64,000 nt of DNA from Escherichia phage SP15: the sequence record AP019559; one strand, written 5' to 3'. Positions 33,267 to 40,809 of this stretch are shown piece after piece (position 1 is the stretch's first letter; each line of letters starts with the position of its first letter). Under the pieces are notes generated by a model. The model saw nothing but the letters and a program-made list of their open reading frames with translations, ran no database searches and was not told the DNA's origin. Position numbers and translations under genes: made by a program.

Positions 33267-33452
33267 TTACTCAGCTTTGAGTTTTTCAATAGCTGCATTA
33301 AGTTCTTTAAGAAACTCTTTTCGTACATTAAGACGATTGAGACTTACTAGTATATCGTGTTTAAGTTCTTCGATGTATTTCTTTTCAACTTCAATATTGT
33401 TGATAGTGCTATCACGATGAACTTCTAGCTGCGCAATTACATTCTTGGACAT
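33267..33452 (-). CDS. small coiled-coil protein
   Basis: 61 aa. Confidence 0.5.
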   Translation of the reverse strand: MSKNVIAQLEVHRDSTINNIEVEKKYIEELKHDILVSLNRLNVRKEFLKELNAAIEKLKAE

Positions 33453-33554
33453 GCTTGTTTCCTCAGTTATTAATGAAAATGGTATCTGTGGCTGAATTCG
33501 ATGTCAGCAATGATAGCTGGTTGGCTACCGGTTTACTTAACTCTACACAGAATT

Positions 33555-33637
33555 TGGCGGGCCGTGTAGGATTCGAACCTACGTTGTCTTTCGACATGGA
33601 TTAACAGTCCACCGCCAAACCGCTTGGCTAACGACCC
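33555..33637 (-). tRNA. class II (long variable arm) tRNA with anticodon GTT (Asn by anticodon), discriminator G
   Basis: Hand fold is clean: D-stem GCCA/TGGC, anticodon stem GTGGA/TCCAT, loop CTGTTAA, variable hairpin GTC-GAAA-GAC, T-arm GTAGG-TTCGAAT-CCTAC. Confidence 0.6.
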
Positions 33638-33789
33638 TAAATTTATATTGCTGACTAGGATTTTCACCTAGACGGAGTTAGCACCGTAGCGTGTAGCGGC
33701 ATACCTCTCCAAACCGTGCCTCATCTTTCAATTACGGAGACAGTGTTCCTACGCGTGCCTGAATTGATTCAACAATTCTTCCAGCAAAT

Positions 33790-33865
33790 TGGACGACCGC
33801 ATGAGATTTGAACTCACATAAAAAGGATTTGCAATCCTTCGCCTAAGCCCTTCAGCCAACGGTCG
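33790..33865 (-). tRNA. tRNA-Cys (GCA)
   Basis: Hand fold: perfect anticodon stem AAGGA/TCCTT, loop TTGCAAA. Confidence 0.75.
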
Positions 33866-33934
33866 GTTTATCTTGTTCTGTCATGTTGCTTCTCCAGTTC
33901 AATTTATGTAATTATTATACAGAACTTTTGGAAA

Positions 33935-34207
33935 CTAAGCAACTACATTTTTTAAGAATTTGATGCCTTTCTTTTTCTTCTTATATTTCCACGTTAATGG
34001 ATTCTGTCGATTATGAACGCTTGAGATCTTTGTCTCGTCAAAGTTCTTCAATATCATGTAATCACAGGATAATTGTTCTAGTAGAATGTGATCACCGTCA
34101 AAAGCGTATACATAAGGCTGTTGACTAACACGATAATGATAGACTTTGTTAATTCTACGTTTCAGCGACTTATCAGCGCAGTAAATAAAGAAGTTTTCAG
34201 GATGCAT
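33935..34207 (-). CDS. hypothetical basic protein
   Basis: Track ORF 33935..34222 (TTG start) trimmed to the ATG at 34207 with AAGGAG RBS. Confidence 0.5.
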   Translation of the reverse strand: MHPENFFIYCADKSLKRRINKVYHYRVSQQPYVYAFDGDHILLEQLSCDYMILKNFDETKISSVHNRQNPLTWKYKKKKKGIKFLKNVVA

Positions 34208-34224
34208 CAGCAGCTCCTTCAATT

Positions 34225-34299
34225 TGGTGCACCCTGTTCGTATCGAACGAACCTCTCAAGCTCTTCAGGCAAGCGCTAATCCATCTCAGCTAAAGGTGC
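34225..34299 (-). tRNA. tRNA-Phe (GAA)
   Basis: Hand fold: U8-A9, D-stem GCTG/TAGC, loop CTGAAGA; two U-U mismatches in anticodon stem. Confidence 0.55.
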
Positions 34300-34305
34300 A
34301 AATTT

Positions 34306-34382
34306 TGGCAAACCTACTAGGACTCGAACCTAGACCGTACGGTTTTGGAGACCGACATGCTGTCCAGTAACACTCTAGGAAT
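34306..34382 (-). tRNA. tRNA-Trp (CCA)
   Basis: Hand fold: loop CTCCAAA, perfect T-stem; acceptor has two U-U mismatches. Confidence 0.55.
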
Positions 34383-34390
34383 GCAGAAAT

Positions 34391-34467
34391 TGGCGTCCTG
34401 TGCGGGGATCGAACCCGCAAATCCTACCTTGAAAGGGTAGTGACTTTACCAGTTTGTCTAACAGGAC
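34391..34467 (-). tRNA. tRNA-Glu (TTC)
   Basis: Hand fold: all four stems perfect, loop CTTTCAA. Confidence 0.85.
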
Positions 34468-34474
34468 TTAAATT

Positions 34475-34565
34475 TGGTGTTGGATGATGGAGTCGAACCA
34501 CCCGAGACCCTTCCGAGTCGGCAGATTTACAGTCTGCTTCGCTACCTCTACGATACTAATCCAAC
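34475..34565 (-). tRNA. tRNA-Tyr (GTA), class II
   Basis: Hand fold: perfect acceptor GTTGGAT/ATCCAAC, anticodon arm GCAGA-CTGTAAA-TCTGC, long variable arm. Confidence 0.75.
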
Positions 34566-34630
34566 ATATTTAGAAGTATTCAAAAATTCTCATTTAAACA
34601 CTTTTAAATATGTTTTCAAATTAGGTAACT

Positions 34631-34687
34631 ATTATACCAAGTTTTAAGGCACTGAGCAAGTCAAATTTTAAAGAACTTGCTCAGTGC
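34631..34687 (-). promoter_or_regulatory. early promoter for the tRNA cluster overlapping a 13-bp perfect inverted repeat
   Basis: Minus strand TTGCTC, 17 nt, TATAAT (34631-34659); inverted repeat GCACTGAGCAAGT 34649-34661 / 34675-34687. Confidence 0.55.
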
Positions 34688-34695
34688 TATATTAG

Positions 34696-34971
34696 TTAGT
34701 CGAACTTAGGAGTGACAGTTAAGGAGAACGGAAGTTCGAAAACTTCTTCACCCTCATTACTAACGGTAACTACACGACCTTTAAGTTCAGACATTAAAAT
34801 ATCAATATCAGCTTTTGCATCTGGAGCCATACCAGCTTCAACACATTTAGCTTTAACTTCCGGCAGAAGTTCGACATCGTAGAAATAAAGCCATTCAATC
34901 TCACCTTCCCAGCCTTCCCAGGATTTACAGATTGCACTTTCAATACCAGTTGCTACAACACGATTTTGCAT
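34696..34971 (-). CDS. hypothetical acidic protein
   Basis: 91 aa. Confidence 0.5.
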   Translation of the reverse strand: MQNRVVATGIESAICKSWEGWEGEIEWLYFYDVELLPEVKAKCVEAGMAPDAKADIDILMSELKGRVVTVSNEGEEVFELPFSLTVTPKFD

Positions 34972-35061
34972 TCGTTAACTCCTTCATCAATTTATACAAC
35001 TATTATATCAGAAATTTAAAGCAAAAGGCAAGTACATTTTTAAAAATTCTGTTTGGAGGAG

Positions 35062-35268
35062 CTAAACTCCAGATTCTTCAGCTAAGTCTAGGCTAATAAG
35101 AGTTATAGCCATAATTGCTGCACCGTGTTCTTTTTCTCCGGTGTTTTTAGCAGAGTCTATAATAGTCTTAATCTGTTCGTAATAGCCTTTTACTTCTTGT
35201 TCAATACCTGCCTCGGCTATCATGCCTTTAGTCATGATTCGTTGCATAGTAATTTCACGGTTAGCCAT
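35062..35268 (-). CDS. hypothetical protein
   Basis: 68 aa. Confidence 0.5.
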   Translation of the reverse strand: MANREITMQRIMTKGMIAEAGIEQEVKGYYEQIKTIIDSAKNTGEKEHGAAIMAITLISLDLAEESGV

Positions 35269-35428
35269 GATGTTTCTCCAGCTTCATTTTTAATAGTTTA
35301 CAAATGAAATCAACGTCTTCATCTGTACCTAGATCTCTATCTTCAAGAGTTGCCTTGAAGTTTTTAGTCAATTCCATGAGGATAACTTCTCTAGAACGAC
35401 GTGTTGGCGGAGGTGGATGTCTATACAT
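35261..35428 (-). CDS. hypothetical small protein (55 aa, below ORF-track cutoff)
   Basis: ATG with AAGGAAATAAG RBS; 8-nt overlap with the downstream gene. Confidence 0.35.
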   Translation of the reverse strand: MYRHPPPPTRRSREVILMELTKNFKATLEDRDLGTDEDVDFICKLLKMKLEKHHG

Positions 35429-35443
35429 CTTATTTCCTTAGTT

Positions 35444-35520
35444 TGGTAGGGGTGGTGGGATTCGAACCCACAAAACCTGAATTTTAAGTCCAGTACCTAT
35501 GCCAATTCGATTACACCCCC
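35444..35520 (-). tRNA. tRNA with anticodon TAA (Leu by anticodon) but class I architecture
   Basis: Hand fold: good acceptor and T-stem, loop CTTAAAA, 5-nt variable loop, discriminator A. Confidence 0.55.
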
Positions 35521-35527
35521 GTGTAGT

Positions 35528-35716
35528 TTAGTCAATTACTTTTGAGGCTTCAAGGTAGTCGATATAGTGTATGTTTTCTACCGTAATCATATAATCTGTC
35601 ACTTTATCCATAGCTTGGGCTTCAGAGGTAGCTCTGGCTAACCTATATCCTTTTTTATATTCATCCGGGTATTCTCTATCTTGGATAAACACAACATAAA
35701 CTATATATAGATCCAT
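35528..35716 (-). CDS. hypothetical protein
   Basis: 62 aa. Confidence 0.5.
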   Translation of the reverse strand: MDLYIVYVVFIQDREYPDEYKKGYRLARATSEAQAMDKVTDYMITVENIHYIDYLEASKVID

Positions 35717-35735
35717 TTGTGACCTCTATTTAATT

Positions 35736-35813
35736 TGGTGGCTCCCCGAGGATTCGAACCTACGTACCTTCCGGTTATGAGCCGGGTGCTCATACCATAT
35801 GAGCTTGAGAACC
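35736..35813 (-). tRNA. tRNA, anticodon CAT (third copy)
   Basis: Hand fold: perfect D-stem GCTC/GAGC, loop CTCATAA; weak T-stem. Confidence 0.5.
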
Positions 35814-35819
35814 AGAATT

Positions 35820-35908
35820 TGGCGGAAGAAGCGGGAATCGAACCCACAAGGCTATATTTCAAACCGACAGATTAGCAATCTGCTGCAATACCGTTATGCT
35901 ATTCTTCC
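35820..35908 (-). tRNA. tRNA-Ser (GCT), class II
   Basis: Hand fold: perfect acceptor GGAAGAA/TTCTTCC, loop TTGCTAA, long variable arm. Confidence 0.75.
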
Positions 35909-35929
35909 GAATTTATAAGATATATTATA

Positions 35930-36448
35930 TTAGAAATTTAGCTTCATAGCAAGAAAATTTTTCAAGTTTTCGGTAGACATCTCATCCACATCTACGGGAG
36001 AAACAAAGCCGTTTAATTTTCTAGCAAATTTTTCACCCGCAGGATCATTATCTCCGACAGCTACCAATTTAAAAGGTAGTAATTTCAGTTGCTTTAATAA
36101 CGCTTTTCCTGGAGAAGAACCCAACATTGCTAGGGCTGGATAACCAGCATTATGTAACGCAACTGCCTTAAATACAGATTCAGCAATCAATACTACTTTT
36201 TCATCTCCATTGAGAGTTTCTAGTCCCCATACACACTGGGTAGTAGAATAAGTAAAGTATTTAGCTTCAAAGGGGCACTTACCATGACCTTTTGGAGCAG
36301 AAGGATTATAAGTTTGATAGCCCCTCAACATCCCAGAGAAGTCATACAACGGGACTGTTAGCCATCCTTCCGGACTTAACCAGCAATGATATTTATCTGT
36401 ATCAAATCCTCTAGATAAGAGGTGCTGTGTTAGCTCATCAACATTCAT
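35930..36448 (-). CDS. TOPRIM-domain protein (small primase or nuclease-like)
   Basis: Track ORF 35930..36499 trimmed to the ATG at 36448 (AAGAGGAA RBS); conserved Glu in 'LIAESVF' and 'VGDNDPAGE' DxD motif. Confidence 0.5.
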   Translation of the reverse strand: MNVDELTQHLLSRGFDTDKYHCWLSPEGWLTVPLYDFSGMLRGYQTYNPSAPKGHGKCPFEAKYFTYSTTQCVWGLETLNGDEKVVLIAESVFKAVALHNAGYPALAMLGSSPGKALLKQLKLLPFKLVAVGDNDPAGEKFARKLNGFVSPVDVDEMSTENLKNFLAMKLNF

Positions 36449-36623
36449 ATTTGGTTCCTCTTTCAAATTTATAGATATATTATACAGAGAATTTAGCATT
36501 CAAGCAATCAAATTTTTTAACTTTTTAGAGGAAAATCATAGGGCACTTAAGGATAGCAGATAAGTGGTGAGGACCAAAATTTGTGACCCCACTAAAAATT
36601 CAGGGGCAATTTTTAAAGACCCC

Positions 36624-36652
36624 TTGACATTTTCGCTGGGGTAGTGTAAAGT
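36624..36652 (+). promoter_or_regulatory. sigma70-type promoter for the plus-strand three-gene module
   Basis: Consensus TTGACA, 17-nt spacer, TAAAGT. Confidence 0.55.
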
Positions 36653-36713
36653 ATATGTTATGGATGAGTGATCAAAGAGACACACATTTTCTATATACTA
36701 GGAGGTGTCAAAA

Positions 36714-37697
36714 ATGACAGAAGAAGTAGCTAAGAGTCCTGAGACCGTCGCTAGCGTTGCAGCAGAACTGCACCGTCACGAGGAATCAGATAAGAAAAAG
36801 TGGGAGAAGGTCAGAGCCTACGAAGAAAAACATCGTGAACACGATGATGAAGAAGATGACGATGAACATTGTCATAAATATGGAAAACATAAAATGCAAG
36901 AACCAGTAAACGTATTTACTAGTGGCTTCCCTGGCCTACTGGGTGGTTACCCAGCAAACGCAGGTGCTTTCGGTGGTGAAGGTATGGGACTATTCGGAGC
37001 TATCCTAATCGGTGCTCTATTAACAGGCGGATTCGGTGGTTTCGGTGGATTCGGTGGACGTGGTGTAGTTGGTGATGGTACCGCAGTTGATGCAGTACTT
37101 CAGAACCAAGATACCGCTAGTATTCTAGCAGCTATTAACACTACTCGTACAGAAGCTAACCAGGGTACTGGAGCTGTTTTAAGCGCAGTTAACAATGGGT
37201 TTAGCCAGACATCCCAAAACCAGAGCCGTGATACTCAGTCTGTACTAACTACGATCTATGGTACAGGTGCTAATCTGTCTAATCAGATCTGTCAGGAAAC
37301 TCGCAACGTTATTCAGGGTCAGTTCGATCTTTCTCGCCAGATTGATCAATCTTTCGCAGCTAATCAGATAGCTCGTGCACAAGATAAGTTTGATTCTGCA
37401 CAGATCGCTTTCCAGCAGACTTTACAAACTAATAACCAGTTTGCCGCTGTTCAGGCTCAGATGTGTGCTAACCAGAACTCTCTGGAACGTCAGATCGCTG
37501 AATGTTGCTGTGAACTTCAGACTGCTATCGCTGGTGTAACTACTGCTCGTATTCAGGATGAGTTAGATGCATGTCGCCTACGTGAAGCAATCGCTGCGGG
37601 TAACGGTGCTAACGGTCAGGTAATTAATCAAATCGCTGTAAGTCTTGGTGCTATCACTCAGACTCTGGCTGGTCTGCAGGCTAAACTGCCGGCTTAA
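36714..37697 (+). CDS. glycine-zipper membrane protein with long Q/N/A/T-rich helical domain
   Basis: Track ORF starts at a GTG at 36705; ATG at 36714 has AGGAGG 8 nt upstream; 'GGFGGFGGFGG' hydrophobic Gly-rich segment; 'CCC' near the C-terminus; host-like codon usage. Confidence 0.6.
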   Translation: MTEEVAKSPETVASVAAELHRHEESDKKKWEKVRAYEEKHREHDDEEDDDEHCHKYGKHKMQEPVNVFTSGFPGLLGGYPANAGAFGGEGMGLFGAILIGALLTGGFGGFGGFGGRGVVGDGTAVDAVLQNQDTASILAAINTTRTEANQGTGAVLSAVNNGFSQTSQNQSRDTQSVLTTIYGTGANLSNQICQETRNVIQGQFDLSRQIDQSFAANQIARAQDKFDSAQIAFQQTLQTNNQFAAVQAQMCANQNSLERQIAECCCELQTAIAGVTTARIQDELDACRLREAIAAGNGANGQVINQIAVSLGAITQTLAGLQAKLPA

Positions 37698-37718
37698 TAT
37701 TAAGGGGAGGAGCCCATT

Positions 37719-38135
37719 ATGAGTAAATATGGTTTTGTAAATAACGGACTTAATCAAAGTATGGGCTCCCAGCAGCCCATTCCGGGTCTGGATAACCCCT
37801 ACTTACAACAATTGCAACAGCGTTTAGCAGAAGCGCAACAGATGCAACAACAACTCCAGCAAAACCCTGGAAGTGTGAGTCCTATGCAAATGATGCAGCA
37901 AATGAGCGGGCAGTCGCAAATGCCTCAACAAATGCAGCAACAGATGCCGCAGCAGCAAGTTCAGCAGCAAACCCAACAACCGCAGGTTTCTGCGGAAGGA
38001 CAGGCAGTACTAGCCCTTTTCGAAGACTTCACAAAGACAGAGGATGGGAAGCAGCTTGTATCACTTATGGGTAAGTTTAATAGCTTCTGCCAAAGCCAAG
38101 TTGCAAAAGCTCAAAATGGTGGTAATAACTCCTAA
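37719..38135 (+). CDS. Gln-rich low-complexity protein
   Basis: 138 aa with poly-Q/M stretch; RBS GGGGAGGAG. Confidence 0.55.
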   Translation: MSKYGFVNNGLNQSMGSQQPIPGLDNPYLQQLQQRLAEAQQMQQQLQQNPGSVSPMQMMQQMSGQSQMPQQMQQQMPQQQVQQQTQQPQVSAEGQAVLALFEDFTKTEDGKQLVSLMGKFNSFCQSQVAKAQNGGNNS

Positions 38136-38144
38136 GGAGAAATT

Positions 38145-38339
38145 ATGTGTTGCAGAAAACCTGTTTCGTGCTGCCCAATGCCTGTAGCACGTTGTTGCTC
38201 TCCAGCAATGTTTACACAAATACCGGCGTTCAATCCCTTTGCCTTTAAGCCTACTCTTATCCTGCCCCCTAGAGTAGATTTTCAGTCAAGATTGGCCTCC
38301 CGTATGGGTGGTTGCTGTACACCGAGAGTGTGGTTCTGA
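38145..38339 (+). CDS. Cys-doublet-rich small protein
   Basis: 64 aa with four CC doublets; RBS AAGGAGA. Confidence 0.5.
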   Translation: MCCRKPVSCCPMPVARCCSPAMFTQIPAFNPFAFKPTLILPPRVDFQSRLASRMGGCCTPRVWF

Positions 38340-38354
38340 AGAACCAAACAATAA

Positions 38355-38390
38355 AGCCCCTAGTCGAAAGACTTAGGGGCTTTTCTGTAT
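38355..38390 (+). terminator. Rho-independent terminator
   Basis: 11-bp stem with one bulge around a GAAA loop, followed by TTTTCTGTATTT. Confidence 0.65.
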
Positions 38391-38394
38391 TTAA

Positions 38395-38436
38395 GATAAA
38401 AGAAAAGCCCTGCGCTCTCCAGGGAACGCAGGGCTT
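38395..38436 (-). terminator. Rho-independent terminator for the SPFH gene
   Basis: 10-bp stem AAGCCCTGCG/CGCAGGGCTT; on the minus strand followed by TTTTCTTTT. Confidence 0.65.
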
Positions 38437-38459
38437 ACTTCAGATGTTACATGCGGATA

Positions 38460-39407
38460 TTATTTATTACGCATATCCATGATCATTTGACCATCGTAGC
38501 CAGTACCTACCACAGTCTGTGGTACACCACCTTGATATTTCTGAGCACGAATCATTTCGACTTCCAGTTGTTTCCAACGAATCATCTCAGGAGTAATGGT
38601 ACGTTGCAGTGCGGCGTTAGCTTCAGCTTCTTTCTTAGCTGCGTACAGTTTAGCATCTGCGTCACGTTCATTAGCGATAGCTTGGTTGTTGCGAGCTTCA
38701 CGATCTGCTTCTGCTTGTTTAACTTTTTGCTGTGCTTCCTGTTCAACACGAGCTAATTCAGCTTTAGCAGCATTAACCTGTTCTTCACGAACTTTGGTAT
38801 TCTGTACCTGTTCCATGATTACCGGTGGCAAAGTAATATCCTGAAGGAATACCTGCTTAACTGTGTAACCATATGGGCGTGCATACTCTTCAACTTCCTG
38901 TTGAATTGCAGTTTGCAATTGAGCCTGAATTTTAGCATCAAACAAATCTTGTGCTTTAGGTACAGACTTACCAAACTCACGAATAGTAGACAGTAATTTT
39001 TCAGTTACATATTTGTCTAACGCTTGATCCTGAGTACCTGCGTTAATACGGTTAATTGGTGCCTTAGAACCATCAAACTGCAACATAACAGTCAGGTCAA
39101 CAGTGGATTTAAACTTATCCTGGCTAGGAACCTGAAGTTTATCTAATTTTACAGCAATATCTTTTGTACTAAAAGTGTCGAAAGATGCAAATGGGTTTAC
39201 AAGATGGAAACCTGGTAATACTGGGTTAGGATCTACTTTACCCAGAAATGTTTGGGTTTTAACCGTACCATCAGAAACAATAGTATATGAATTAAAGGCT
39301 AGAATCAAGCCTGCTAAACCAACTACAGCACCAATACCCCAACGTTTAATAGTACGAATTACTTTCTGCTCAGAAGTCAGTTCTTTCATATTTTTAGTAT
39401 TAAACAT
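38460..39407 (-). CDS. SPFH/band-7 (stomatin/prohibitin/HflK-C-like) membrane protein
   Basis: N-terminal transmembrane helix, central SPFH-like region, C-terminal A/E/Q-rich coiled-coil; host-like codon usage. Confidence 0.7.
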   Translation of the reverse strand: MFNTKNMKELTSEQKVIRTIKRWGIGAVVGLAGLILAFNSYTIVSDGTVKTQTFLGKVDPNPVLPGFHLVNPFASFDTFSTKDIAVKLDKLQVPSQDKFKSTVDLTVMLQFDGSKAPINRINAGTQDQALDKYVTEKLLSTIREFGKSVPKAQDLFDAKIQAQLQTAIQQEVEEYARPYGYTVKQVFLQDITLPPVIMEQVQNTKVREEQVNAAKAELARVEQEAQQKVKQAEADREARNNQAIANERDADAKLYAAKKEAEANAALQRTITPEMIRWKQLEVEMIRAQKYQGGVPQTVVGTGYDGQMIMDMRNK

Positions 39408-39441
39408 ATATTTCCTTTGTTTTAGTTACAGTTAATAAAAT

Positions 39442-39516
39442 TGGCCGAGGTGACAGGATTCGAACCTGCATAAAGGAATTTAGAAGACTCCTGCCTCTCC
39501 CTTAGACTACACCCCG
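39442..39516 (-). tRNA. tRNA-Arg (TCT)
   Basis: Hand fold: acceptor CGGGGTG/CACCTCG, loop CTTCTAA, discriminator G; isolated from the main cluster. Confidence 0.7.
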
Positions 39517-40018
39517 TTTAAATATTTTTAAGAACTCTCGTAAAAACTCTTAAAAATACAGACGATACCGGGAGAGTCATAAGTCTCACTCATTAAGTAT
39601 TTCAAGACAAAATACAGTAACGTCTATTATTTTCCAGTTTAAGTCAGGGTGACTTAGTGGTTAGGTCCTGCGGTATATTGAGGACTCGGTTAGGCTTGGG
39701 GTCATGACTTCCCGCCTTTTGCTGCTACTCAACAGGAGTTATCGCGAATTACCTGTGCTATTGTGCACCATTAGTGACATCTCTCATGTCAGCATTTCCC
39801 ACTTTGTGGATAGCTTGAAAAACTACTCCGATATGGAGAAAAAACTTCACTATCCTAGAATACCTTCTAAAGTTCTTCTTTAGCCTGGACATAGTTAAAT
39901 CGTAATAAAACTATTCAGCAGACTGGTTGGTTAGCCTGGAACCAACTACCGCGTGGTTTAGGCAGTGCGCAACTAACCTCGGAAGCTTTTACGTTAAAAG
40001 CATCAGTTATCCAGTTCT

Positions 40019-40090
40019 TACCGACCGTAGGATTCGAACCTATATCTTCCACCAGTTACGGCTTGATAATACCAATTATACTAGGACGGC
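40019..40090 (-). other. degenerate tRNA-like element inside an ~800-bp non-coding region
   Basis: Acceptor-like pairing GCCGTCC/GGTCGGT and T-arm TAGG-TTCGAAT-CCTA; no canonical anticodon arm. Confidence 0.35.
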
Positions 40091-40328
40091 AGTGTTACTA
40101 CATAAGTGATTTCCACACCCCACTATTTATAAATTAGAGAAGAGTTTAGGGGAGAGGTTTCAGACGCCTCATTTTACACGTTCTAGCCACTAACCGGGAT
40201 TGCCGCCCCCTGTGTACTAGTTTTACAACTAACCTACCGACTCTATTCAACGAATCTTAGTGCTCGACGCATCTTACATTAAGACAAGTTCAGCGTAATC
40301 GGCTCGCTGTTCTCTAATTTATGAATAT

Positions 40329-40357
40329 ATTATACAGAATTTATAAGCATTTAGCAA
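40329..40357 (-). promoter_or_regulatory. T5-type early promoter reading into the non-coding leader, tRNA-Arg and the SPFH gene
   Basis: Minus strand TTGCTA, 17 nt, TATAAT. Confidence 0.55.
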
Positions 40358-40365
40358 ATAAATTT

Positions 40366-40809
40366 TTAATTAAATTCACCAGCAATCTGAGCAGCAGTAC
40401 CACCATCATAACGCCCAGGAAATTCTTCCTTAATCGCTTTCATCAGCATACCTTTTGTAATTCCAGGGTTTAGCTTAACTAATTCTGCAAAGTATTTACG
40501 AATCTCAGTATCAGATAACTGAGGGGGCAGATACTCCTGCAACCACTTATTTAGAATGTACTCATACTGAGCGGACTGCAAGCTATAACTATCAAGATCT
40601 TGACCATGAAGTTTAGCTTTCATCTGGTTAATGCTTTTTAGTTGAGCTTTGAGATAAGACACAAATTGTTCAGAAGTGATGAAATCTTTATTAATACGCT
40701 GAAGATCCCCGATTATGGTCTGATAGCTTTTAGCGACTTCTTTATCAGAACCATTAAACTTAGAATCCTGCAAAGCTCTACGCAAAACATCTAAAATATT
40801 CTCTTCCAT
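40366..40809 (-). CDS. hypothetical protein (possible GatB/YqeY-like domain)
   Basis: 147-aa ORF; weak similarity impression at the C-terminus. Confidence 0.45.
   Translation of the reverse strand: MEENILDVLRRALQDSKFNGSDKEVAKSYQTIIGDLQRINKDFITSEQFVSYLKAQLKSINQMKAKLHGQDLDSYSLQSAQYEYILNKWLQEYLPPQLSDTEIRKYFAELVKLNPGITKGMLMKAIKEEFPGRYDGGTAAQIAGEFN

What the first reader, a model, noticed from the sequence alone, without database searches (positions are those of the whole stretch)
36600..39420. Codon-biased membrane module: SPFH/band-7 protein convergent with a Gly-zipper / Q-rich / Cys-doublet three-gene operon
Three plus-strand genes (36714-38339) sit inside an otherwise minus-strand region, with their own consensus TTGACA promoter and a GNRA-loop terminator. 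They encode a glycine-zipper membrane protein with a long Q/N/A/T-rich helical domain, a poly-Q protein and a 64-aa peptide with four CC doublets. A convergent SPFH/band-7 membrane-scaffold gene (38460-39407) has its own terminator. Both units use host-like codons and are bracketed by tRNA genes (Ser-GCT at 35908, Arg-TCT at 39442). None has an obvious phage housekeeping role; the composition suggests a membrane-remodelling, host-takeover or exclusion function.
Basis: partly seen in the sequence, partly recalled or inferred. Interest (0 to 1): 0.75.

Follow-up and report, generated by a model that had tools for sequence, protein, structure and literature searches.

The report
Mobile three-gene phage membrane cassette
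This block of a T5-type phage holds a dispensable three-gene membrane-protein cassette of unknown function that recurs intact in unrelated phages. Next to it lies a separate prohibitin-like membrane-scaffold gene, so the genes are real and unusual but already annotated and not one module.

Summary
The window is a Tequintavirus, and the block corresponds to T5 genes T5.077, T5.078, T5.079 (plus strand) and T5.080 (SPFH, minus strand). Their early promoter, both terminators and the flanking tRNAs are already annotated in T5 records. All four genes are under purifying selection (dN/dS 0.05-0.26) yet dispensable. The viable T5st0 deletion removes window 33284-40805, and a published T5 knock-down screen scores all four 'Not Fit'.

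New here:
- The three plus-strand genes form a self-contained mobile cassette. It recurs in the same order in a lambdoid phage, an N4-like phage and Pseudomonas phage RSP. In some T5 relatives nadR/pnuC occupies the same slot.
- The first protein has an invariant CCC motif and belongs to a large family with no characterised member (about 2,570 hits), reaching into Firmicute phages.
- The SPFH gene is distributed independently (724 phage records against about 221), so the 'single module' reading fails.

No curated library, solved structure or fold search gives a function. My best guess, at low confidence, is a cysteine-linked complex on the inner membrane acting in envelope-level phage competition. 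Ordinary in category (accessory genes), unusual in content.

The parts
36624..36652 (+). Sigma-70 type promoter of the cassette (TTGACA, 17 nt, TAAAGT). Equivalent to T5 early promoter P12/T5P21.
   Evidence: 10 of 12 matches. Conserved in T5, STG2 and two distant T5-like contigs. Annotated as a promoter in NC_005859 and AY587007.
36714..37697 (+). ORF1 (T5.077 homologue, phrog_8119), 327 aa. Order of features: confident N-terminal helix with an acidic/His-rich stretch; conserved 'EPVNVFT' motif; Gly-rich single hydrophobic segment with glycine-zipper patterns; about 200 aa of long helices with an invariant CCC (residues 264-266) and C251; highly conserved C-terminus NGQVINQIAVSLGAITQTLA.
   Evidence: AF2 with a 109-sequence alignment gives helices 12-44, 94-103, 124-166 and 174-324. 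dN/dS 0.13. CAI 0.44.
37719..38135 (+). ORF2 (T5.078 homologue, phrog_7894), 138 aa. It has a conserved N-terminal helix motif (YLQQLQQRLAEAQ), a Q/P-rich low-complexity middle, and a conserved C-terminal region of about 45 aa (FE.F..TEDGKQLV..GKF..FCQS) with one invariant Cys.
   Evidence: dN/dS 0.135. Starts 21 nt after the ORF1 stop, behind GGAGGAG.
38145..38339 (+). ORF3 (T5.079 homologue), 64 aa, 16% Pro. N-terminal MCC and three further CC doublets. No signal peptide or lipobox. Unannotated in most GenBank records.
   Evidence: 220 phage records, 80-100% identity. Equivalents in RSP, lambdoid, N4-like and distant T5-like cassettes share M1, C2 and an internal CC. dN/dS 0.26.
38353..38395 (+). 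Intrinsic terminator of the cassette. A 13-bp stem with one bulge, a GAAA loop, then a U-rich tract.
   Evidence: -23.2 kcal/mol, z -6.4. Annotated as an 'efficient bidirectional rho-independent terminator' in T5.
38395..38436 (-). Intrinsic terminator of the SPFH gene. It contains a GCGC (about 38412-38415) at the place where T5 records annotate the 32.6% major single-strand nick.
   Evidence: -26.2 kcal/mol, z -5.4. Nick annotations.
38460..39407 (-). SPFH/Band-7 protein (T5.080 homologue, phrog_200), 315 aa. Basic N-tail, one transmembrane segment (about 19-46), SPFH domain, Ala/Glu/Gln-rich C-terminal region. It has no cysteine, so it is not a lipoprotein.
   Evidence: (QmcA 8z5g E 1.8e-6; prohibitin-2 E 8.6e-5). 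dN/dS 0.05. CAI 0.45.
39442..39516 (-). tRNA-Arg(TCT), immediately upstream of the SPFH gene on the same strand. Right-hand boundary of the block.
35820..35908 (-). tRNA-Ser(GCT), left-hand boundary marker. A Toprim gene lies between it and the cassette.

Best explanation
The block contains two independent accessory units in the deletable tRNA-rich region of a T5-type phage.

Unit A (36624-38395, plus strand) is a self-contained three-gene cassette. It is driven by an early promoter, its genes are closely spaced (21 and 9 nt apart, each behind its own ribosome-binding site), and it moves between phages as a unit. I infer that its products assemble into one complex on the inner membrane.
- ORF1 is anchored by a single glycine-zipper segment. 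Flanking charges favour N-terminus out and C-terminus in.
- ORF1 then extends a helical rod of more than 20 nm that carries an invariant CCC motif.
- ORF2 (Q-rich, one invariant Cys) and ORF3 (Cys-doublet, Pro-rich peptide) lack export signals. They would bind the rod in the cytoplasm through metal-bridged or disulfide-linked cysteine clusters.

The most likely role is envelope-level competition: superinfection exclusion, or protection of the infected or lysogenic cell against rival phages or membrane-targeting attack. It is not phage propagation itself.

Unit B (38395-39407, minus strand) is a prohibitin/QmcA-like SPFH scaffold. Its basic N-tail predicts an HflK/C-like orientation with the bulk of the protein in the periplasm. 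It is expected to form an oligomeric membrane cage and is shared with T4-like phages.

Shown: gene reality, purifying selection, dispensability, cassette mobility, family breadth, and SPFH membership by sequence.
Inferred: topology, complex formation, cysteine chemistry, and the biological role.
For: Identity and annotation: 99% identical to T5-like phages, and equals T5.077-T5.080 with an annotated early promoter and terminators.

Real genes: dN/dS 0.05-0.26.

Dispensable:
- The T5st0 deletion equals window 33284-40805.
- All four genes are 'Not Fit' in CRISPRi-ART (PMC11879866 supplements).
- The slot holds nadR/pnuC in bobsandoy and saus132.

Mobile unit: ORF1, ORF2 and ORF3 occur in the same order, opposite in strand to most or all neighbouring genes, in several unrelated contexts.
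- A lambdoid phage, between the Q antiterminator and the holin/lysozyme/Rz genes.
- An N4-like phage.
- Pseudomonas phage RSP, beside the terminase genes.
- Distant T5-like contigs, on the other side of the Toprim gene.

Conserved cysteines: ORF1 C251 and C264-266, ORF2 C124, ORF3 C2/C17/C18.

Close spacing: gaps of 21 and 9 nt, each with a Shine-Dalgarno sequence.

Helical rod: AF2 helices 124-166 and 174-324, pLDDT 78-90 over residues 170-250.

Topology: an acidic residue before and an Arg after the hydrophobic segment. In 96 Firmicute-type relatives the N-tail has 0.22 K/R against 2.7 D/E.

Abundance: ORF1 and SPFH CAI rank 6th and 5th of 82 ORFs.

Large family: 2,570 hits. The bridge to the Firmicute type is hhalign 98%, E 1.4e-13, and P0030 hits both phrog_8119 and phrog_16490.

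SPFH: Pfam Band_7 above cut-off, QmcA and prohibitin hits, and 724 phage records.
Against: No direct evidence bears on the function.
- PADLOC, Pfam, NCBIfam and PDB searches are empty for ORF1-3.
- The AF2 model is only moderate (mean pLDDT 66, pTM 0.28) and has no fold match.
- A long, highly charged N-tail (75-107 aa in the proteobacterial type) is hard to translocate, so the opposite topology (C-terminal rod in the periplasm, disulfide-linked) is not excluded.
- T5 already has Llp for receptor-level exclusion (established knowledge).
- Deletion mutants of the tRNA-rich region lost resistance to only two retrons across a defence panel, and that maps to other genes (PMC11555353). No phenotype is yet tied to the cassette.
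- No relatives were found in 100,044 species-representative bacterial genomes, so evidence that it acts as a prophage 'moron' rests on three metagenomic lambdoid contigs.
Confidence: 0.35

Rival explanations
1. The cassette is a lysis-associated device. It would regulate lysis timing, act as a holin partner or antiholin, or act like a spanin: a membrane-anchored helical rod with cysteines plus a small Pro-rich Cys peptide.
For: In the lambdoid phage it abuts the holin/lysozyme/Rz genes. Firmicute-type relatives lie directly after or close to holin and endolysin genes (L009, L035, L037). ORF1 and ORF3 superficially resemble the Rz/Rz1 architecture (sequence).
Against: - In T5-like, N4-like and RSP genomes the cassette is not next to a lysis cassette.
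- It has its own early promoter and opposite orientation.
- The lambdoid phage already has Rz (PF03245).
- ORF3 has no signal peptide or lipobox.
- Spanins are not needed in Firmicutes (established knowledge).
- T5st0 lacks the cassette and is a standard viable laboratory strain.
- The position downstream of lysis genes is also the usual moron slot.
Confidence: 0.15
2. The cassette is an anti-defence (counter-immunity) factor, like its neighbours in the T5 tRNA-rich region.
For: It sits between phage tRNAs and the Toprim gene T5.076/ORF75. Both are reported to counter retron or tRNA-targeting defences (PMC11879866 supplement; PMC11555353). It is accessory and horizontally mobile.
Against: - Deletion mutants of the tRNA-rich region lost resistance only to retron Eco2 and Eco7 in the panel tested. 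That loss mapped to ORF75 and tRNA-Tyr, not to other fragments.
- A membrane-anchored structural complex is atypical for known anti-defence proteins.
- Its presence in a temperate lambdoid phage at a moron position suggests a benefit to the host cell.
Confidence: 0.15
3. The cassette handles metal or redox chemistry. The Cys clusters and the His/acidic-rich N-domain would sequester or deliver Zn, Cu, Ni or an Fe-S cluster during infection.
For: Eight invariant cysteines across three proteins without export signals. His-rich inserts occur in ORF1, for example HHYHHHHHHHEH in the STG2-type allele. Conserved cytoplasmic Cys clusters usually bind metal (established knowledge).
Against: The His-rich stretch is hypervariable and absent in several relatives. 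There is no similarity to any known metal-binding family. Metal binding may be purely structural, which is compatible with the main explanation.
Confidence: 0.1
4. One reading: the SPFH gene and the three-gene operon are one functional membrane module.
For: They are convergent and adjacent, share a terminator region, and ORF1 and SPFH both have high CAI. Every T5-like phage with the cassette also has the SPFH gene.
Against: - SPFH occurs in about 500 phage records without the cassette, including T4-like phages at 78% identity.
- About 210 T5-like records have SPFH but no cassette.
- The cassette occurs without nearby SPFH in lambdoid, N4-like and RSP phages.
- SPFH is instead repeatedly next to NAD-salvage genes.
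Confidence: 0.07

Closest known systems
Phage T5 genes T5.077, T5.078, T5.079 and T5.080 (NC_005859; ORF072/073, 'kapc' and 'band 7' in AY587007)
   Same: Direct orthologues with the same order, promoter, terminators and flanking tRNAs. The aligned segment of ORF1 is 80-87% identical to T5 by tblastn; ORF3 is 92% identical.
   Different: Nothing structural differs. All four are listed as of unknown function. The database labels 'cAMP-dependent protein kinase catalytic subunit' (ORF2) and 'lipoprotein' (SPFH) have no support here.
SPFH family: E. coli QmcA, prohibitins, HflK/HflC
   Same: Band_7 domain above the Pfam cut-off, an N-terminal membrane anchor, and a C-terminal Ala/Glu/Gln-rich region. 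The basic N-tail predicts an HflK/C- and prohibitin-like orientation (inference from sequence).
   Different: Phage-encoded and single-gene, with no NfeD partner gene and no paired second SPFH subunit nearby. Sequence similarity is low (E 1.8e-6 to QmcA). Oligomeric state and any FtsH link were not tested.
Phage morons: self-contained accessory genes with their own promoter and terminator, such as lambda bor/lom or stx between Q and the lysis genes (established knowledge)
   Same: Own promoter and terminator, opposite strand to most or all neighbouring genes, dispensable, present or absent among close relatives, and located between Q and the lysis genes in the lambdoid example.
   Different: Three co-transcribed genes rather than one. 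It is mainly found in virulent phages (T5-like, N4-like). No prophage copy was found in 100,044 species genomes or in 5,426 E. coli genomes.
Two-component spanins Rz/Rz1 (established knowledge)
   Same: A membrane-anchored helical protein with conserved cysteines, plus a small Pro-rich Cys-containing partner encoded next to it.
   Different: ORF3 has no lipoprotein signal. ORF1 has a long N-terminal domain before its anchor. A third, Q-rich protein is present. The cassette is not in a lysis cassette in T5, and it coexists with Rz in the lambdoid phage.
Membrane-level superinfection exclusion proteins (T5 Llp, T4 Imm/Sp, P22 SieA; established knowledge)
   Same: Early or lysogenic expression, membrane location and dispensability in single infections are the properties proposed here.
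   Different: No sequence or architectural similarity was found in the general library searches; no direct comparison with Llp, Imm, Sp or SieA was made. The known examples are single small proteins. No exclusion phenotype is known for this cassette.

Membership tests
SPFH / Band 7 (gene at 38460-39407) | Band_7 (PF01145) domain scoring above the curated threshold | tested here: met
   64.2 bits against a cut-off of 23.6, E 2e-17. phmmer hits to QmcA 8z5g and prohibitin-1/-2.
SPFH / Band 7 (gene at 38460-39407) | N-terminal membrane anchor before the SPFH domain | tested here: met
   Single hydrophobic stretch at about residues 19-46, KD19 maximum 1.79.
SPFH / Band 7 (gene at 38460-39407) | Assembly into large oligomeric rings or cages | not testable with these tools
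   Would need purification or a multimer prediction.
SPFH / Band 7 (gene at 38460-39407) | Operon partner typical of bacterial SPFH genes (NfeD, or a paired HflK/HflC subunit) | tested here: not met
   The gene stands alone between tRNA-Arg and its own terminator. This feature is common in the family but does not define it.
Bacterial lipoprotein (RefSeq and PHROG label of the SPFH gene) | Signal peptide ending in a lipobox cysteine | tested here: not met
   The protein contains no cysteine.
Two-component spanin (ORF1 as i-spanin, ORF3 as o-spanin) | The o-spanin is an outer-membrane lipoprotein with a signal peptide and lipobox | tested here: not met
   ORF3 starts MCCRKPVS and has no hydrophobic signal segment (KD19 maximum 0.85).
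Two-component spanin (ORF1 as i-spanin, ORF3 as o-spanin) | The i-spanin has an N-terminal transmembrane anchor followed by a periplasmic coiled coil, and is encoded in the lysis cassette | tested here: inconclusive
   ORF1 has an anchor plus long helices. However, about 85 aa precede the anchor, flanking charges favour a cytoplasmic C-domain, and the T5 location is not a lysis cassette.
Glycine-zipper transmembrane segment (motif class, not a homology family) | (G/A/S)xxxGxxx(G/A/S/T) pattern inside a hydrophobic segment | tested here: met
   Read directly from ORF1: AILIGALLT and ALLTGGFGG within GMGLFGAILIGALLTGGFGGFGGFGG. G106, G109 and G111 are invariant in the 12-sequence alignment and at least 90% conserved across 109 relatives.
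Known anti-phage defence systems (PADLOC-DB) | Match to any PADLOC protein model | tested here: not met
   No family at E up to 1 for any of the four proteins.
PHROG families phrog_8119 (ORF1), phrog_7894 (ORF2), phrog_200 (SPFH) | Full-length profile match | tested here: met
   E 4e-203, 1e-79 and 2e-86. The first two families have no known function. ORF3 matches no PHROG.

The most novel reading that the evidence does not exclude
T5.077-079 is the proteobacterial branch of a very large, unrecognised cross-phylum family of phage cassettes. The family would be built around a membrane-anchored 'CCC-helix' protein: thousands of members, phrog_8119 plus phrog_16490, in T5-like, N4-like, lambdoid, Pseudomonas and Firmicute phages. 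The cassette would assemble a cysteine- or metal-crosslinked rod complex at the membrane. That would be a new class of phage envelope device, for example for exclusion or lysis control, with no characterised homologue.
Probability: 0.3. Interest if true: 0.75.

Novelty: new variant of a known kind. Interest (0 to 1): 0.5.

Why it matters
T5 is a model phage, yet these four conserved genes still have no assigned function. This work shows that the three-gene operon is a portable unit shared by four unrelated phage lineages and tied to a family of thousands of uncharacterised phage proteins. That turns an anonymous 'hypothetical' cluster into a defined experimental target.

The target is tractable. 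It has invariant cysteines to mutate and a natural deletion strain (T5st0) to complement. A clear set of assays follows: exclusion, lysis timing, metal content and topology.

The work also corrects misleading database labels ('lipoprotein', 'cAMP-dependent protein kinase') and separates the SPFH gene, which travels with NAD-salvage genes, from the cassette.

Tried and rejected
- Curated libraries gave nothing for ORF1-3: Pfam, NCBIfam, PADLOC and PDB sequence profiles.
- AF2 on a 12-sequence alignment was unusable (pLDDT 46). A 109-sequence alignment gave long helices only (pLDDT 66), and Foldseek against the PDB found nothing (best E 5.4, vimentin).
- I suspected that ORF3 corresponds to the Cys-Gly/Pro-rich C-terminal tail of Firmicute-type ORF1 proteins (a fusion/fission event). 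80 of 91 tails carry a C.?C cluster, but hhalign gave 0.3% probability. This is a compositional resemblance only.
- No significant heptad or hendecad hydrophobic periodicity in ORF1 residues 121-327 (p about 0.2).
- Recent capture from the host is rejected as the source of the raised GC. ORF1's GC3 is average, there was no match of the lambdoid cassette in 5,426 E. coli genomes, and there were no relatives in 100,044 species genomes.
- An IMG/VR scan returned only T5-like loci.
- The small zinc-ribbon ORFs upstream of the cassette in other phages gave only generic sub-threshold hits.
- Full-text searches for T5.077-T5.080 and for T5 with SPFH found no functional study.


Full report
WHAT THE WINDOW IS. 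The 3-kb block is 99% identical to T5-like phages NBEco001 and FFH_1, and matches 446 phage records in all. The window carries 23 minus-strand tRNA genes. In reference T5 (NC_005859) the same genes are T5.077, T5.078, T5.079 (plus strand) and T5.080 (minus strand). That record annotates promoter P12, an 'efficient bidirectional rho-independent terminator' and a major DNA nick between the two units. The independent record AY587007 calls the promoter 'putative early promoter T5P21', labels T5.080 'band 7', and places the '32.6% major nick' in the terminator region.

CHECK OF THE OBSERVATION. ORF coordinates, strands, ribosome-binding sites and compositions are as described.
- ORF1 is 327 aa. It has an acidic/His-rich N-terminal 60 residues, a 35%-Gly region containing the only hydrophobic segment, and an A/Q/T/N-rich C-terminal 200 residues.
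- ORF2 is 28% Gln.
- ORF3 has eight cysteines as four CC doublets and is 16% Pro.
- The SPFH protein passes the Pfam Band_7 threshold.
- The promoter hexamers are at 36624-36652 and are conserved among T5 relatives.
- Both terminators fold far better than shuffles.

Codon bias is partial. Using the Sharp-Li E. coli weights, which I entered from memory, ORF1 and SPFH rank 6th and 5th of 82 window ORFs, while ORF2 and ORF3 do not stand out. ORF1's raised GC comes from its amino-acid composition, not from GC3. All four genes evolve under purifying selection. ORF3 is unannotated in most records but is 80-100% conserved in 220 phage records.

THE GENES ARE DISPENSABLE AND VARIABLE.
- The T5st0 deletion-mutant genome (AY692264) joins tRNA-Asp directly to the remnant of T5.081.
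- blastn shows the window aligns to it only up to 33283 and again from 40806. The deletion therefore removes the cassette, the SPFH gene, tRNA-Arg and the RNAX region.
- In the CRISPRi-ART T5 screen, T5.077.078.079 and .080 are all listed 'unknown function' and 'Not Fit' (PMC11879866, supplementary files 8 and 16).
- Similar spontaneous deletions of about 8 kb (T5n, SP15m) are viable. In the defence panel tested they lose resistance only to retrons Eco2 and Eco7, and this maps to ORF75 and tRNA-Tyr (PMC11555353).
- In phages bobsandoy and saus132 the slot between the SPFH gene and the Toprim/tRNA-Ser region holds a nadR-like NMN adenylyltransferase and pnuC instead. Other phages with an equally similar SPFH, such as Seabear and STK8t, keep the cassette.

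TWO UNITS, NOT ONE. The SPFH protein is found in 724 phage records, including T4-like Klebsiella, Enterobacter, Cronobacter and Aeromonas phages at up to 78% identity. ORF1 and ORF3 are found in about 221. In Slopekvirus phT4A the SPFH gene is again followed by NAD-salvage genes (NadM family). The SPFH gene therefore travels with NAD genes, not with the cassette.

THE CASSETTE IS A MOBILE UNIT. ORF1-like, ORF2-like and ORF3-like genes occur in the same order with short gaps in several unrelated settings.
- Pseudomonas phage RSP, diverging from the terminase genes.
- Three lambdoid metagenomic contigs, between a Q-type antiterminator and the holin/lysozyme/Rz genes, on the opposite strand.
- An N4-like contig identified by virion RNA polymerase domains.
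- Distant T5-like contigs, where the cassette lies on the other side of the Toprim gene.

Alignments show invariant residues across these lineages.
- ORF1: C251, CCC 264-266 and the C-terminal NGQ.INQIA.SLG motif.
- ORF2: the 'T.DGKQL...KF..FCQ' region.
- ORF3: M1, C2 and an internal CC.

In RSP and in the lambdoid and N4-like contigs, a small divergent zinc-ribbon ORF precedes ORF1. The T5 group lacks it.

A LARGE UNCHARACTERISED FAMILY.
- The close proteobacterial type is rare. Only 5 clusters reach E<1e-30 among 1.84 billion representatives, and 91 reach E<1e-3.
- None was found in 100,044 species genomes.
- A profile that includes three distant hits recovers 2,570 proteins. Most are 290-380 aa, with no Pfam domain and no name.
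- The link between the two types is supported by hhalign (98% probability, E 1.4e-13 over the CCC segment). In addition, P0030 matches both phrog_8119 and phrog_16490.
- These Firmicute-type proteins share a Gly-rich hydrophobic segment, N/Q/G-rich helical repeats, a 'QLA.CCC.NR' motif and a Cys-Gly/Pro-rich tail.
- They also lead three-gene groups: the ORF1-like gene, a roughly 150-aa phrog_20016 protein, and a helical low-complexity protein. These lie after or near holin and endolysin genes, or between late and replication genes.
- More distant hits carry the CCC segment at the end of long repeat proteins with sub-threshold apolipoprotein-like repeats.

STRUCTURE AND TOPOLOGY. AF2 with the deep alignment predicts a confident N-terminal helix (residues 12-44, pLDDT above 90), a short helix in the hydrophobic segment, and helices 124-166 and 174-324. 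A single 150-residue helix would be about 22 nm long (my arithmetic, at 0.15 nm per residue). No solved structure resembles the model.

Flanking charges favour N-out/C-in. There is an acidic residue before and an Arg after the segment in the proteobacterial type. In 96 Firmicute-type proteins the N-tails have almost no Lys or Arg. This fits the absence of export signals in ORF2 and ORF3, and it would make the conserved cysteines cytoplasmic and hence likely metal ligands. That last step is inference. The long charged N-tail of the T5 type argues the other way.

MECHANISM. I commit to the following, at about 0.35 confidence.
- Unit A: a stoichiometric, cysteine-linked three-protein complex on the inner membrane. 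It is expressed early, or from a prophage, and acts in competition at the cell envelope, such as exclusion or protection. It is not needed for propagation.
- Unit B: an independent prohibitin-like SPFH cage.

Four rivals are listed with their evidence: a lysis-associated device, an anti-defence factor, metal handling, and a single SPFH-operon module.

COMPARISON AND NOVELTY. The SPFH gene is a new member of a known family. Its 'lipoprotein' label is wrong because the protein has no cysteine. The cassette matches no characterised family. In category it behaves like a moron-type accessory cassette. The resemblance to Rz/Rz1 fails the lipoprotein test. The genes themselves were already annotated. 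What this work adds is the cassette's cross-lineage mobility, the slot swap with nadR/pnuC, the link to a family of thousands, and the separation from SPFH.

VERDICT. The function is still unknown. Interest is moderate (0.5).

Noticed in passing
window 35930-36499 (minus strand): The Toprim protein next to the cassette is the homologue of T5.076. A published T5 re-annotation lists T5.076 as 'anti-defense, subverts retron-mediated defense' and 'Semi-Fit'. It probably corresponds to ORF75 of phage SP15. RefSeq calls it 'DNA primase'.
   Followed up: partly
window 38405-38436 (GCGC at about 38412-38415): The SPFH terminator hairpin coincides with the site that T5 records annotate as the 32.6% major single-strand nick, whose consensus contains GCGC. 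A nick inside a bidirectional terminator hairpin is curious and unexplained.
   Followed up: no
L005 5716-5919 (-), L008 5756-5911 (-), L004 4263-4409 (-): A small zinc-ribbon ORF (CxxC...CxxC plus a basic tail) lies divergently just upstream of ORF1 in the lambdoid, N4-like and RSP cassettes, but not in T5-like phages. It may be a regulator or a fourth cassette gene. Only generic sub-threshold Pfam hits were found.
   Followed up: partly
L010 5709-7443, L011 5718-7452, L042 4077-5137: The SPFH gene is followed by NAD-salvage genes both in some T5 relatives (nadR-like NMNAT plus pnuC) and in T4-like Slopekvirus phT4A (NadM family). The SPFH proteins are about 78% identical, which suggests an SPFH-plus-NAD block exchanged between phage families.
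   Followed up: partly
window 37719-38135, 38145-38339 and 38460-39407, in public records: Public annotations are misleading. ORF2 is labelled 'cAMP-dependent protein kinase catalytic subunit' in several records. The RSP ORF3 is labelled 'alpha/beta hydrolase like protein'. SPFH is labelled 'lipoprotein' although it has no cysteine. ORF3 is unannotated in most records. ORF1 is split into ORF072/ORF073 in AY587007.
   Followed up: yes
window 35739-35813 (-) and 40019-40090 (-): Rfam finds a further tRNA at 35739-35813 (40.3 bits) that ARAGORN did not report. It corresponds by position to T5's tRNA-Ile(CAU)/Met. Rfam also finds a borderline tRNA-like element at 40019-40090 (28.3 bits against a threshold of 29). 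That element lies in the ORF-poor gap 39517-40365, which T5 annotates as stable 'RNAX' of unknown function.
   Followed up: partly
ORF1 residues about 35-60 (window about 36815-36895); STG2-type allele in L029: The acidic/His-rich stretch of ORF1 is hypervariable in length. It reaches HHYHHHHHHHEH plus a long Asp/Glu run in STG2-like phages, and is absent in several distant relatives.
   Followed up: no
window 38145-38339 compared with L029: Between the window and phage STG2, ORF3 has a much lower synonymous divergence (dS 0.18) than ORF1 (0.72) and ORF2 (0.64). This could reflect nucleotide-level constraint or a recent recombination end-point.
   Followed up: no
A8 alignment, ORF1 residues 64-65 (window about 36903-36908): A 'PV' motif about 20-30 residues before the hydrophobic segment (EPVNVFT in the T5 type, MPVQPM in the Firmicute type) is at least 90% conserved across 109 family members. 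Its role is unknown.
   Followed up: no
L030 6571-7143 (-): In a distant T5-like contig the position convergent with the cassette is taken by a 190-aa single-pass membrane protein with no Pfam match, not by an SPFH gene.
   Followed up: no
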